From contig CBDCRA010000005.1 in NCBI GenBank assembly GCA_965220845.1, positions 896,016 to 960,015 on the forward strand: a stretch of 64,000 nucleotides of DNA. Reading direction: 5' to 3'. Every line of letters begins with the position of its first letter. Position 1 is the first letter of the stretch. The notes beneath the pieces are model-generated. The model had not been told where the DNA came from. It did no database searches and saw nothing but the letters and a program-made list of their open reading frames with translations. The translations under genes and the position numbers were made by a program. Of the stretch, positions 10,039 through 10,728 are shown in pieces. Origin of the DNA: Candidatus Multivorans sp. Lineage in GTDB: Bacteria; Acidobacteriota; Thermoanaerobaculia; Multivoradales; Multivoraceae.

Positions 10039-10335
10039 TCAGACGAGGCAGAACGCCGCGGCGTTGAACGCTGCTGGTGCAACTATCGCGGAAACGCCGC
10101 CGGTGAGGGGAGCAGCTGACAACAGGCCGACGCCTATGAAGGAGGCGGCGATGGCGCACCTCCACTTCCACGCCAGTGCACCTTGAATCGCCTCCGCTGC
10201 TTGGTCCGAGAGGGGCAGAATCGCGCTCTCCGGGCTCGATTGCAAGCCGGTGTCGGGGACTGTTGCGGTGAATGGCCCTGTCAGTGGCGCCAGTGTGACG
10301 GCGGCGAGAACGAGGAAGACGATCAGTGTCTTCAT
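10039..10335 (-). CDS. small secreted precursor peptide D (98 aa): Sec signal + leader-like segment + hydrophobic Gly/Ala-rich, 2-Cys core
   Basis: RBS AGGAAAGGAAG upstream. MKTLIVFLVLAAVTLAPLTGP signal. The segment AILPLSDQAAEAIQGA resembles the leader of peptide B (AILPEADLAAVTGG). The core has a second GG (PLTGG) and a C-terminal AAFCLV. Confidence 0.65.
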   Translation of the reverse strand: MKTLIVFLVLAAVTLAPLTGPFTATVPDTGLQSSPESAILPLSDQAAEAIQGALAWKWRCAIAASFIGVGLLSAAPLTGGVSAIVAPAAFNAAAFCLV

Positions 10336-10413
10336 GAGTAGTGCTTCCTTTCCTTGAGTTGTTGAGCCGGGAACCGAGGGCGTTTGCTCGCCCGCGGATC
10401 CCGGCGAAGCGTC

Positions 10414-10728
10414 CTAAATGAATAGGCAGGCTACGGTCGCAATGGTCATCGCGGTTCCGCATACTGGGCAGACCGCGCCGACAACGGCACGCTTCACGAG
10501 CCTCTTGGCAAGCGCGCGCCCGCCGAGGAAACCTCCGACTGCGAGACAGCCTCCGACAACCCAGTCGGGCGCGCCGCCGCCCAGCACGGCCATTTCGGTC
10601 GTGGCAAGCGGCGAAGAGCTGTCAAGAGCGGAGTCCGAGATCGAGGGCGCGATCGCTGCGGACGCTGAGATAGCGGAGGCCCCGGCGAGTAGCAAGAGAG
10701 CGACGAGGAGGGATGACAGTAGTTTCAT
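10414..10728 (-). CDS. small secreted precursor peptide C (104 aa): Sec signal + S/A-rich leader-like region ending in GGG + Gly-rich, 4-Cys hydrophobic core
   Basis: Start at MKLLSS (ATG 10728) with AAGGA upstream. ...TTEMAVLGGG|APDWVVGGCLAVGGFLGGRALAKRLVKRAVVGAVCPVCGTAMTIATVACLFI. Confidence 0.6.
   Translation of the reverse strand: MKLLSSLLVALLLLAGASAISASAAIAPSISDSALDSSSPLATTEMAVLGGGAPDWVVGGCLAVGGFLGGRALAKRLVKRAVVGAVCPVCGTAMTIATVACLFI

What the first reader, a model, noticed from the sequence alone, without database searches (positions are those of the whole stretch)
10039..10728. Two further precursor-like peptides with Sec signal plus leader-like segment and Gly/Cys-rich hydrophobic cores related to peptide B
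Peptide D (10039-10335) carries AILPLSDQAAEAIQGA, which aligns with the peptide B leader AILPEADLAAVTGG. Peptide C (10414-10728) carries ...SPLATTEMAVLGGG before an APDWVVGGCLAVGGFLGG...CPVCG...ACLFI core. Both combine an N-terminal Sec-type signal peptide with an internal GG-type leader-like segment, which is unusual and suggests two-step processing. Both share hydrophobic C-termini with a near-terminal Cys (ACLFI, AAFCLV; compare SCLSLIF in B).
Basis: seen in the sequence. Interest (0 to 1): 0.75.

Follow-up and report, generated by a model that had tools for sequence, protein, structure and literature searches.

The report
Sec-exported peptides with internal double-glycine leaders
Two small genes encode peptides with an ordinary export signal followed by a second, bacteriocin-type cleavage signal, next to an exported protease that should cut it, which points to an undescribed way of maturing toxin-like peptides outside the cytoplasm.

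Summary
Peptides C (10414-10728, minus strand) and D (10039-10335, minus strand) are real, conserved genes. Each has a Sec-type N-terminus, an acidic pro-region ending in a double-glycine-type leader (L-12, E-8, L/M-7, hydrophobic -4, G-2, G/A/S-1), and a hydrophobic cationic core with one Cys near each end. All homologues found keep the G-[GAS] site and the Cys positions, and none is part of a larger protein.

Just upstream lie a stand-alone, N-terminally anchored C39 double-glycine peptidase and a TlpA/MauD-like redoxin, both predicted to face the periplasm. Of 67 stand-alone-C39 loci from Acidobacteriota, Ignavibacteria and Bacteroidota, 61 carry such peptides directly downstream. None of 8 transporter-fused (PCAT) loci does.

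Between near-identical strains the peptides and two large membrane proteins (M552, M529) form a replaced cassette, while the peptidase, redoxin and ABC ATPase stay 96-99% identical. M552 occurs only where C and D occur.

Best reading: Sec export, periplasmic C39 cleavage and disulfide stapling yield a two-peptide, bacteriocin-like membrane toxin, with ABC/Yip1/M5xx self-protection. Processing and activity are inferred, not shown. I found no curated family or paper describing it. It is a new variant of a known kind.

The parts
10414..10728 (-). Peptide C precursor, 104 aa. Signal peptide: residues 1-24 (10657-10728), ending ASA|A. Acidic pro-region: residues 25-52 (10573-10656). Double-glycine-type leader LATTEMAVLGGG: 10573-10608. 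Predicted mature core of 52 aa, net charge +4, 4 Cys: 10417-10572.
   Evidence: L-12, E-8, L-4, G-2 and all four Cys are invariant in 7 homologues.
10039..10335 (-). Peptide D precursor, 98 aa. Signal or anchor segment: about residues 1-22 (10270-10335). Acidic pro-region: residues 23-53 (10177-10269). Leader LSDQAAEAIQGA: 10177-10212. Predicted mature core of 45 aa, net charge +2, with Cys7 and Cys43 of the core: 10042-10176.
   Evidence: I-x-G-A|L-A-x-K-W-x-C is invariant. The AF2 model gives a helical hairpin for the core with pLDDT 81-88.
10806..10982 (-). Peptide B, 58 aa. It has an N-terminal 22-aa double-glycine leader with no signal peptide (10917-10982) and a 36-aa core with 2 Cys (10809-10916).
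   Evidence: The family is conserved in at least 14 distinct loci. The Shine-Dalgarno sequence has been lost in this lineage.
10993..11220 (-). Peptide A, 75 aa. It has a signal peptide and a Pro-rich core with 2 Cys, and no GG-type site. It is always the first gene after the peptidase.
11236..11838 (-). Stand-alone C39 double-glycine peptidase, 200 aa. It has one N-terminal hydrophobic anchor (residues 11-29) and a catalytic domain predicted to face the periplasm.
   Evidence: Pfam PF03412, E 1e-30. Q58, C64, H138 and D153 are invariant. Best PDB matches are LahT150, PCAT1 and ComA.
11828..12331 (-). TlpA/MauD-like redoxin, 167 aa. It has an N-terminal anchor and a C-G-N-C motif, and is the putative disulfide catalyst for the peptides.
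   Evidence: Pfam Redoxin. It is conserved upstream of the C39 gene across phyla and is fused to C39 in P0102.
8298..9956 (-). M552, a polytopic membrane protein with about 10 TM segments and no known family. It is present only where C/D-type peptides are present, and is the putative cognate immunity or permease component.
6471..8060 (-). M529, a paralogue of M552 (29% identity). It is the most divergent large gene of the variable cassette.
5630..6418 (-). ABC ATPase of the DrrA / ABC-2 type, 262 aa. It belongs to the conserved part of the locus.
4110..5633 (-). Two Yip1-domain membrane proteins, at 4854-5633 and 4110-4808.
   Evidence: Pfam PF04893 on the identical genes of L001. Yip1 proteins are also present in the distant loci.

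Best explanation
C and D are prepro-peptides of a maturation pathway that works outside the cytoplasm.

Step 1 (inferred from sequence): the N-terminal signal takes the precursor through Sec. For C a canonical ASA|A signal-peptidase site follows. D may stay tethered by its signal segment.

Step 2 (inferred from motif conservation and gene linkage): the acidic pro-region ends in an amphipathic double-glycine-type helix with L at -12, E at -8, L/M at -7, a hydrophobic residue at -4, G at -2 and G/A/S at -1. The membrane-anchored, periplasm-facing stand-alone C39 peptidase encoded two to three genes upstream recognises this helix and cuts after GG (C) or GA (D).

Step 3 (inferred): the adjacent anchored TlpA/MauD-like redoxin forms the disulfide that ties the Cys 7-9 residues after the cut site to the Cys 3-4 residues from the C-terminus. 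This closes a two-helix hydrophobic hairpin. C has an extra CPVC pair.

Step 4 (inferred by analogy and from population genetics): the mature cationic peptides (52 aa, +4; 45 aa, +2) act together as a two-peptide, membrane-active, bacteriocin-like toxin. M552 and M529 together with the ABC ATPase and the Yip1 proteins extract or expel the peptides and protect the producer.

The same operon plan occurs in several classes of Acidobacteriota and in Ignavibacteria and Bacteroidota. It is therefore a general system and not a quirk of this genome.
For: - Conserved leader and Cys positions in all homologues.
- An independent GG-leader matrix places its best site 2-10 residues before the first core Cys, with G at -2, in 102 of 115 non-Pro-rich peptides. 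Of these 115, 67 score p<=0.05 against shuffles.
- 100 of 102 cores have an even number of Cys. The last Cys lies within 5 residues of the C-terminus in 96 of 102. Pro-regions have mean net charge -3.1 and cores about 0.
- The C39 enzyme has its catalytic Q/C/H/D intact and is closest to bona fide double-glycine proteases in the PDB.
- The N-in/C-out topology is supported in 73 of 83 homologues and by a TM-thioredoxin-C39 fusion whose downstream gene is again SP + IEDTHLQQIVGG + a 2-Cys core.
- 61 of 67 stand-alone loci carry such peptides, against 0 of 8 PCAT loci.
- The operon plan redoxin, C39, peptides, ~500-aa membrane protein, ABC ATPase, Yip1 is seen in Blastocatellia, another Acidobacteria MAG (L075) and Ignavibacteriales. 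A partial version without the ~500-aa protein or ABC ATPase is seen in Chitinophagaceae.
- Cassette behaviour: the window and L011 are 97.2% and 95.9% identical in DNA on the two flanks. Identity is 78-82% or unalignable from 11143 to 6511. At protein level C39 is 99%, the ATPase 99%, pepC 56%, pepD 59%, M552 81% and M529 44%.
- C and D always occur together, and M552 orthologues occur only with them.
- The AF2 model of D shows a leader helix and a core helical hairpin with pLDDT 81-88.
- Precedents: bacteroidetocin clusters combine a GG peptide, a thiol oxidoreductase, a TM protein and a GG peptidase (PMC6671954). A Yip1 protein plus an ABC transporter protects against the disulfide-containing toxin SDP (PMC4887032). 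FapD is a periplasmic C39 peptidase (PMC5557850).
Against: - Nothing has been shown experimentally: no cleavage, no disulfide, no activity.
- No signal-peptide or topology predictor was available. D lacks a clean signal-peptidase site.
- Peptide B and its conserved family carry the same leader without any signal peptide. At least one substrate must therefore reach the peptidase by another route or be cut elsewhere.
- The hydrophobic cores look like transmembrane hairpins and could simply stay in the producer's inner membrane.
- No outer-membrane export component was identified in the cluster, so release from a diderm cell is unexplained.
- TlpA-like redoxins are usually reductants, so an oxidising role is an assumption.
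- The AF2 model of C is uninformative (pLDDT 50).
- High dS in the cassette points to allele replacement, not to demonstrated positive selection.
- Many of the counted loci are close relatives, so raw counts overstate independent observations.
Confidence: 0.6

Rival explanations
1. C and D are small integral membrane proteins (two-helix hairpins) that stay in the producer's inner membrane after Sec insertion and trimming of the pro-region. They would serve as subunits, regulators or chaperoned clients of the M552/M529-ABC-Yip1 complex, not as secreted toxins.
For: The cores contain TM-like hydrophobic segments, and C has a KR-rich loop that fits a cytoplasmic turn. No outer-membrane export component was identified in the cluster. 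Tight co-variation with M552 would also fit co-evolving subunits.
Against: Two to four different paralogous peptides occur per locus. Leaders and cores are shuffled between precursors (chimeric precursors in L022, L023, L027 and L030). Whole cassettes are replaced between near-identical strains. Some cores are hydrophilic or amphipathic, as in L053, L055 and L095. These are features of polymorphic toxin/immunity loci, not of structural subunits.
Confidence: 0.2
2. They are exported signalling peptides (pheromone-like, as for ComC or plantaricin A), processed at the GG site and sensed by neighbouring cells.
For: Double-glycine leaders are also used by peptide pheromones (established knowledge).
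Against: No histidine kinase or response regulator lies beside the peptides in the cluster. The cores are 45-52 aa, strongly hydrophobic and disulfide-bracketed, unlike known GG pheromones. They occur as co-varying sets together with large membrane proteins.
Confidence: 0.05
3. They are ordinary cytoplasmic GG-leader bacteriocin precursors whose start codons are mis-called. On this reading the 'signal peptide' is untranslated and the C39 enzyme acts in the cytoplasm.
For: Peptide B shows that a leader without a signal peptide exists in the same cluster.
Against: The signal regions are under purifying selection, with dN below dS in all 8 comparisons. Shine-Dalgarno sequences sit before the upstream ATGs. 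Pro-region indels between homologues are all in frame. In C the only Met between the signal and the GG site lies 6 residues before the cut; in-frame GTG/TTG codons were not checked. The peptidase has an N-terminal anchor with positive-inside bias and occurs fused to periplasmic-type thioredoxin.
Confidence: 0.03
4. The GG plus hydrophobic tail is a GlyGly-CTERM-like sorting signal, or another C-terminal anchor, on a small secreted protein.
For: In C the GG is followed by a hydrophobic stretch and a basic cluster.
Against: No rhombosortase-like gene showed up among the cluster genes scanned. The sequence continues with a second hydrophobic helix and conserved Cys residues. D has no basic cluster. 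The 'passenger' would be only about 28 residues of poorly conserved acidic sequence. The linked enzyme is a C39 peptidase.
Confidence: 0.02

Closest known systems
Class II bacteriocins and class II microcins with double-glycine leaders, processed by peptidase-containing ABC transporters (PCATs such as CvaB, ComA, LahT, PCAT1)
   Same: Same leader consensus and same cut site (G-G/A/S). Same protease family (C39, PF03412), and the best PDB matches are these enzymes. The products are small, hydrophobic or cationic and contain Cys.
   Different: Here the leader is internal, preceded by a Sec-type signal. The protease is a separate 200-aa anchored protein predicted to face the periplasm. It is not the cytoplasmic N-terminal domain of the exporter, and export and cleavage are uncoupled. 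No PCAT, membrane-fusion protein or TolC gene was identified in the cluster.
Bacteroidetocins (proposed class IIf): clusters of a TM protein, a GG-leader peptide, a thiol oxidoreductase and a PCAT (PMC6671954)
   Same: They combine a GG-cleaved, Cys-containing peptide of about 40 aa with a dedicated thiol oxidoreductase and membrane proteins in a diderm phylum.
   Different: Bacteroidetocin leaders are N-terminal and 15 aa long, and the peptidase is part of the ABC transporter. Here there is a Sec signal, a stand-alone exported peptidase, an ABC-2-type ATPase, Yip1 proteins and ~500-aa membrane proteins of no known family.
FapD, the periplasmic C39 peptidase of the Pseudomonas Fap amyloid system (PMC5557850)
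   Same: It is a stand-alone C39 peptidase with a Sec signal, acting in the periplasm on Sec-exported clients.
   Different: Fap proteins lack canonical GG leaders and the FapD substrate is unknown. The window enzyme scores 44.5 bits against the FapD model, whose cut-off is 330. The clients here are small Cys-bracketed peptides with canonical leaders, and there is no FapF-like barrel.
Two-peptide (class IIb) bacteriocins such as lactococcin G and plantaricin EF/JK
   Same: Two different adjacent peptide genes always occur together (C and D). They carry GxxxG or small-xxx-small motifs and are followed by a co-varying membrane protein gene.
   Different: There is no sequence similarity. Class IIb peptides have N-terminal leaders, usually no disulfides, and small immunity proteins. 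The requirement for both peptides is untested here.
SDP (SdpC-derived cannibalism toxin) and its YknWXYZ protection system in Bacillus (PMC4887032)
   Same: A hydrophobic toxin peptide with a disulfide is protected against by an ABC transporter that needs a Yip1-family protein. From my own knowledge, the toxin is cut out of a Sec-exported precursor by further processing.
   Different: There is no sequence relationship. The processing factors differ (SdpAB, not C39). The organism is Gram-positive and there is no GG leader.
Microcin PDI (McpM) with two successive GG-type leaders (PMC5311971)
   Same: It undergoes two sequential N-terminal cleavages, the second at a G-A site.
   Different: Both McpM leaders are GG-type and both cuts depend on the PCAT McpB. 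There is no Sec step.

Membership tests
Double-glycine-leader bacteriocin/microcin precursors (TIGR01847 bacteriocin_sig, PF10439) | Leader matching LSxxELxxIxGG and ending in GG, GA or GS | tested here: met
   C has L-12, E-8, M-7, L-4, G-2, G-1. D has L-12, S-11, I-4, G-2, A-1. These positions are invariant or conservatively substituted in homologues.
Double-glycine-leader bacteriocin/microcin precursors (TIGR01847 bacteriocin_sig, PF10439) | Leader lies at the extreme N-terminus (about 15-30 aa) with no Sec signal | tested here: not met
   In C and D the leader ends at residue 52 or 53, after a hydrophobic signal segment. The feature is met only by peptide B.
Double-glycine-leader bacteriocin/microcin precursors (TIGR01847 bacteriocin_sig, PF10439) | Score above the curated HMM cut-off | tested here: not met
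   The window peptides give no hit at E<=0.1. Related peptides from other loci score 13.7-14.1 bits against the TIGR01847 cut-off of 15.7, with the match at an internal position.
Double-glycine-leader bacteriocin/microcin precursors (TIGR01847 bacteriocin_sig, PF10439) | Cleavage and export by an ABC transporter with a fused cytoplasmic C39 domain | tested here: not met
   The C39 gene encodes 200 aa with an N-terminal anchor. The window contains no second C39 or PCAT gene.
Double-glycine-leader bacteriocin/microcin precursors (TIGR01847 bacteriocin_sig, PF10439) | Antimicrobial activity of the mature peptide | not testable with these tools
   Needs synthesis or expression and a killing assay.
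C39 double-glycine peptidases (PF03412) | Pfam score above cut-off and an intact catalytic Q, C, H, D set | tested here: met
   106.7 bits against a cut-off of 22. Q58, C64, H138 and D153 are invariant in 21 homologues.
FapD (NF058616) and FilB (NF050078) periplasmic C39 families | Score above the NCBIfam equivalog cut-off | tested here: not met
   44.5 bits against 330 for FapD, and 20.2 bits against 475 for FilB.
Two-peptide (class IIb) bacteriocins | Two different adjacent peptide genes that always co-occur in one operon | tested here: met
   C-type and D-type genes are adjacent in the window and in all six other distinct loci that have either one: L011/L012, L013/L035, L029, L036, L044 and L047.
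Two-peptide (class IIb) bacteriocins | GxxxG motifs in both peptides | tested here: inconclusive
   The C core has G13xxxG17 and G14xxxG18. D has only small-xxx-small motifs (A11xxxG15, G17xxxA21, G26xxxA30), read directly from the sequence.
Two-peptide (class IIb) bacteriocins | Both peptides needed in about equal amounts for activity, plus a dedicated immunity gene | not testable with these tools
   Co-variation of M552 with C and D is consistent with an immunity role but is not proof.
GlyGly-CTERM / rhombosortase sorting signals | GG, then a single TM helix, then a basic cluster at the extreme C-terminus, with a rhombosortase gene | tested here: not met
   A second helix and conserved Cys residues follow the basic cluster in C. 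D has no basic cluster. No rhombosortase-like gene showed up among the cluster genes scanned.
Sec-dependent signal peptides | Positively charged n-region, 7-15 residue h-region, small residues at -3 and -1 | tested here: inconclusive
   C fits: MK, then a 14-residue h-region, then ASA|A. D has the n- and h-regions but Pro at +1 of the plausible sites. No dedicated predictor was available.

The most novel reading that the evidence does not exclude
This is a previously undescribed, cross-phylum pathway in which double-glycine-leader peptides are first exported by Sec. They are then matured in the periplasm by a dedicated anchored C39 peptidase and a thioredoxin-fold partner. The pathway would be a 'periplasmic' class of diderm bacteriocins that is invisible to current microcin and bacteriocin mining, which expects an N-terminal leader and a PCAT. 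It would also provide the first canonical substrate class for stand-alone exported C39 peptidases.
Probability: 0.5. Interest if true: 0.8.

Novelty: new variant of a known kind. Interest (0 to 1): 0.68.

Why it matters
The double-glycine leader is treated in textbooks as a Sec-independent export signal, read in the cytoplasm by the peptidase domain of its own ABC transporter. In this system the same leader sits behind a Sec signal, and the peptidase has been detached, anchored and turned outward, together with a disulfide enzyme.

If this is confirmed, four things follow.
- C39 recognition of GG leaders would be shown to work outside the cell membrane. That would give a defined substrate class for the uncharacterised periplasmic C39 enzymes, since FapD's substrate is still unknown (PMC5557850).
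- It would reveal a reservoir of peptide toxins in Acidobacteriota, Ignavibacteria and Bacteroidota. Pipelines that anchor the GG motif at the N-terminus would be expected to miss it (the regexes in PMC12219008 start at Met1).
- It would offer a simple two-enzyme module (peptidase plus redoxin) for periplasmic release of disulfide-stapled peptides from Sec-exported fusions.
- It would give a natural system for studying how producers handle very hydrophobic peptides that pass through their own membrane.

Tried and rejected
- A genome scan with M552 as a single query found no relative. A C39 alignment was used instead.
- My first ad hoc motif score did not separate real from shuffled sequences well, because the Gly-rich cores mimic the motif. 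It was replaced by a matrix built from known leaders.
- All-against-all BLAST without composition correction merged nearly all peptides into one cluster, so it was not used to define families.
- I first suspected that B was a decayed remnant of a signal-bearing 'INWGK.ACW' family (best hit E 7.7e-4). I rejected this as the main reading, because SP-less B-type genes with good Shine-Dalgarno sites are conserved in at least 14 loci.
- Profile-profile tests found no significant homology between the B, C and D cores.
The two-sequence model is poor, with pLDDT 50.
- M552 has no match in the PDB by sequence.
- The peptides and M552/M529 have no Pfam, NCBIfam or PADLOC family.
- Rfam gave no match and the sigma-70 scan found no promoter-like site. 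The five terminator-like sites are close to the number expected from shuffles.
- Literature searches for a Sec signal combined with a GG leader, or for periplasmic or stand-alone C39 substrates, found only FapD, MccPDI and PCAT systems. One search was swamped by 'C39' meaning Cys39.
- I considered a CaaX-like reading of the C-terminal C-L-F-I and C-L-V. I dropped it because the spacing is not conserved across families and no prenylation or CaaX-protease gene is present in the cluster.
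Full report
**1. The observation**

Both ORFs exist on the minus strand at the stated coordinates, and they encode the quoted sequences.

Peptide C (10414-10728, 104 aa) reads MKLLSSLLVALLLLAGASAISASA | AIAPSISDSALDSSSPLATTEMAVLGGG | APDWVVGGCLAVGGFLGGRALAKRLVKRAVVGAVCPVCGTAMTIATVACLFI.

Peptide D (10039-10335, 98 aa) reads MKTLIVFLVLAAVTLAPLTGPF TATVPDTGLQSSPESAILPLSDQAAEAIQGA | LAWKWRCAIAASFIGVGLLSAAPLTGGVSAIVAPAAFNAAAFCLV.

The evidence that they are genes and not chance ORFs of a 65-70% GC genome:
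- Third-position GC is raised in these frames.
- Shine-Dalgarno sequences precede both ATGs.
- Independent assemblies call the same genes.
- dN is below dS in the signal, pro and core parts in 23 of 24 comparisons with four diverged homologues.

**2.

The word-indexed search found one diverged C homologue, at 56% identity. The exhaustive HMMER search found five C-family clusters among 1.84 billion representatives. It also returned one weak hit, P0117 (1877 aa, E 2.2e-4, 12 matched stretches), which I did not inspect.

The four new clusters whose sequences I read are 109-115 aa. They have a signal peptide...EL..L/ITG[GA] | AP.WV... and four Cys.

In a seven-member alignment L41, E45, L49, G51, W56, C61, C87, P88, C90 and C101 are invariant. 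These are positions -12, -8, -4 and -2 of a textbook double-glycine leader, plus every Cys.

D has eight hits at 64-99% identity (one, P0010, a frameshifted copy). In an alignment of the window peptide with seven full-length homologues, S43, D44, A47, I50, G52, A53, L54, K57, W58, C60 and C96 are invariant.

None of the inspected homologues is a fragment of a larger protein.

**3. Context in the window (all genes on the minus strand)**

The order is:
- TlpA/MauD-like redoxin (11828-12331)
- stand-alone C39 peptidase (11236-11838)
- peptide A (signal peptide plus Pro-rich core, 10993-11220)
- peptide B (N-terminal GG leader without a signal peptide, 10806-10982)
- peptide C, then peptide D
- M552 (8298-9956) and its paralogue M529 (6471-8060; 29% identity, E 4e-44)
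- a DrrA-type ABC ATPase (5630-6418)
- two Yip1-domain proteins (4110-5633)

The source organism is a Thermoanaerobaculia MAG (Acidobacteriota, 'Candidatus Multivorans' lineage).

**4. The peptidase**

It is a genuine double-glycine protease. Pfam C39 scores 106.7 bits. The catalytic Q58, C64, H138 and D153 are invariant. The best solved relatives are LahT150, PCAT1 and ComA.

Unlike those enzymes it is only 200 aa long and begins with a single hydrophobic segment.

In 73 of 83 homologues there are more K/R residues before that segment than after it (means 4.95 and 2.24). This predicts that the catalytic domain lies outside the cytoplasmic membrane.

One relative, P0102, has the order TM anchor, thioredoxin domain, C39 domain. 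The gene after it encodes MKNRIALLFLVLLALFVSNLVLLPMGSSQIEDTHLQQIVGG | ...C...C, and a Yip1 protein gene lies further downstream.

The neighbouring redoxin has the same N-terminal anchor.

**5. The pattern is general**

A scan of 185,579 species genomes with a C39 alignment returned 80 loci. I extracted signal-bearing small ORFs downstream of the C39 match.

I then scored them with a matrix built only from 20 Gram-positive and microcin GG leaders recalled from memory.
- Of 115 peptides that are not Pro-rich, 102 have their best site with G at -2 and the first Cys 2-10 residues further on.
- 67 of the 115 score p<=0.05 against shuffles.
- Position -12 is L in 67 of 102. Position -7 is L or M in 72. 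Position -1 is G in 57, A in 26, T in 13 and S in 3.
- Cores have a median length of 43 aa. 100 of 102 have an even number of Cys. The last Cys is within 5 residues of the C-terminus in 96 of 102.
- Pro-regions are acidic (mean net charge -3.1) and cores are about neutral.

Clear examples are VEQLTDAQLATVIGG|EPLLDSTC (L053), PELLSDEELAAVSGG|KSKNTVRC (L057) and SAQLDSNEMQQISGG|KSAC (L077, Chitinophagaceae).

The association is specific. 61 of 67 stand-alone C39 loci with enough downstream sequence carry at least one such peptide. None of 8 loci where C39 is the N-terminus of a 600-740-aa ABC transporter does.

Distant loci repeat the operon plan of redoxin, C39, peptides, ~500-aa polytopic protein, ABC ATPase and Yip1. 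It is seen in Blastocatellia (L072), another Acidobacteria MAG (L075) and Ignavibacteriales (L066). The Chitinophagaceae locus (L077) has redoxin, C39, a peptide, Yip1 and MauE/DoxX, but no ~500-aa protein or ABC ATPase was found there.

Many of the loci are close relatives, so the counts overstate independent events. The spread across phyla does not depend on that.

**6. Population behaviour**

The window and locus L011 are 97.2% identical in DNA from 19746 to 11143, and 95.9% identical from 6511 to 1500. Between 11143 and 6511 they are 78-82% identical or unalignable.

Protein identities are:

| Gene | Identity |
|---|---|
| SNF2 helicase | 99% |
| Redoxin | 96% |
| C39 peptidase | 99% |
| ABC ATPase | 99% |
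| Peptide A | 51% |
| Peptide C | 56% |
| Peptide D | 59% |
| M552 | 81% |
| M529 | 44% |

The cassette therefore begins just after the signal-coding part of A and ends at the M529/ATPase junction.

Synonymous divergence inside the cassette is high (dS 0.5-1.4). This indicates replacement by old alleles, not rapid local change.

C-type and D-type genes always occur together. M552 orthologues (60-81% identity) occur only in those loci (L011/L012, L013/L035, L029, L036, L044, L047). All other loci have a single M529-like protein.

Some precursors are chimeras of an A-type signal and pro-region with another core type (L022, L023, L027, L030).

A conserved processing and transport machinery flanking variable peptide and membrane-protein modules is the usual signature of toxin/immunity loci.

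**7. Mechanism proposed**

Shown by sequence and comparison:
- the tripartite precursors
- the conserved leader and Cys positions
- an intact, anchored C39 enzyme and redoxin
- the tight gene linkage
- the cassette structure

Inferred:
- Sec export
- cleavage after GGG52 (C) and GA53 (D) in the periplasm
- a disulfide linking the N-proximal and C-terminal Cys residues, so that the two predicted helices form a closed hairpin
- joint action of C (+4) and D (+2) on membranes
- protection or extraction by M552/M529, the ABC ATPase and the Yip1 proteins

The AF2 model of D has helices at 39-73 and 81-96, with pLDDT 81-88 in the core.

D lacks a clean signal-peptidase site, so the C39 cut may be what releases it from its anchor.

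Three precedents support the inferred steps. Bacteroidetocin clusters pair a GG peptide with a thiol oxidoreductase (PMC6671954). A Yip1 protein is needed by the ABC system that protects Bacillus from the disulfide-containing toxin SDP (PMC4887032). FapD shows that C39 peptidases can work in the periplasm, although its substrate and recognition motif are unknown (PMC5557850).

**8. What does not fit**

Peptide B and its family (at least 14 distinct loci, GG and two Cys invariant, usually with a good Shine-Dalgarno site) have the same leader but no signal peptide. Their route to an outward-facing peptidase is unexplained. Export by the ABC system is one possibility.

In the window lineage B has lost its Shine-Dalgarno sequence. 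In L006 it has GG changed to GR and a truncated end.

The B, C and D cores are not demonstrably homologous. They share the leader type and a plan: W at +2 to +4, Cys at +5 to +9, and Cys near the C-terminus.

The cores could remain in the producer's membrane. No outer-membrane export component was identified in the cluster.

**9. Comparison with what is known**

The peptides work like GG-leader class II bacteriocin or microcin precursors but fail three defining features of that family. The leader is not N-terminal, there is no fused PCAT, and they score below the curated HMM cut-offs.

The peptidase is a member of Pfam C39 but not of the FapD or FilB equivalogs.

No Pfam, NCBIfam or PADLOC model covers the peptides or M552/M529.

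Six literature searches aimed at this architecture found no description of a Sec signal followed by a GG leader. Current microcin mining anchors the GG signal at Met1 (PMC12219008).

**10. Verdict**

The system is a new variant of a known kind: double-glycine maturation moved to the periplasm and placed behind Sec export. It is conserved across phyla. Its function as a two-peptide toxin is plausible but unproven.

Noticed in passing
window 10993-11220 (-); also L015:8619-8945 and L035:8691-9014: Peptide A family. It has a signal peptide and a Pro-rich core with 2-6 Cys, and it is always the first gene after the C39 peptidase. It has no GG-type site, but carries conserved motifs just before the first Cys (..ELAVY.PCGC.. 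or ..QYFPVPC..). Its function and processing are unknown.
   Followed up: partly
window 10806-10982 (-); also L015:8983-9159, L029:8972-9145 and L006:6641-6808: B-type peptides with an N-terminal GG leader and no signal peptide are conserved between A and the next peptide in at least 14 distinct loci. In the window lineage the Shine-Dalgarno sequence is lost (TAGCGGTCCCGAC, against TAGGAGTCCCGAC in L017). The L006 copy has GG changed to GR and a shortened C-terminus. How an SP-less substrate reaches an outward-facing peptidase is unexplained.
   Followed up: partly
window 6511-11143: There are sharp boundaries of a replaced cassette relative to L011. DNA identity is 97% and 96% outside and 78-82% or unalignable inside. 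The left boundary falls inside peptide A, just after its signal-coding part. The right boundary falls at the M529/ABC ATPase junction.
   Followed up: yes
L022:9205-9564, L023:5214-5573, L027:9155-9514, L030:9208-9567: These are chimeric precursors. An A-type signal peptide and early pro-region are joined to the leader and core of the '..SDFLCG..' family, which suggests modular recombination between signals and cores.
   Followed up: no
L053-L060 (for example L055:8700-9002, in the same genome as L035): Second, smaller stand-alone-C39 loci occur in the same genomes. They have one or two SP+GG peptides, some with cationic amphipathic rather than hydrophobic cores, and several lack the redoxin gene.
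   Followed up: no
L013:12341-13678: The M529 homologue in this complete genome turns into an Arg/Pro-rich nonsense tail after about residue 320. That looks like a frameshift, so it may be a pseudogene or an assembly error.
   Followed up: no
P0096 (291 aa) / L076:8460-8705: A public gene call fuses the C39 peptidase with the downstream SP+GG peptide into one 291-aa protein. This is likely an annotation artefact, and it could hide such peptides in databases.
   Followed up: partly
L077:10227-10691; L066:12396-13375: In the Chitinophagaceae locus a MauE/DoxX membrane protein sits in the cluster. In the Ignavibacteriales locus a rhodanese-like ORF and a possibly DoxX-like membrane ORF follow (judged by eye, not scanned). 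This suggests a MauD/MauE-style redox pair feeding the redoxin.
   Followed up: no
window 2698-3798 (-): A conserved 366-aa signal-bearing protein of unknown function follows the Yip1 genes in most Thermoanaerobaculia loci (84-97% identity). It lies outside the variable cassette, and it is unclear whether it belongs to the system.
   Followed up: no
L095:7172-7432: Downstream of the thioredoxin-C39 fusion gene, the SP+GG peptide has a hydrophilic Pro/Asp/Glu-rich core with two Cys. The pathway is therefore not restricted to hydrophobic cargo.
   Followed up: partly
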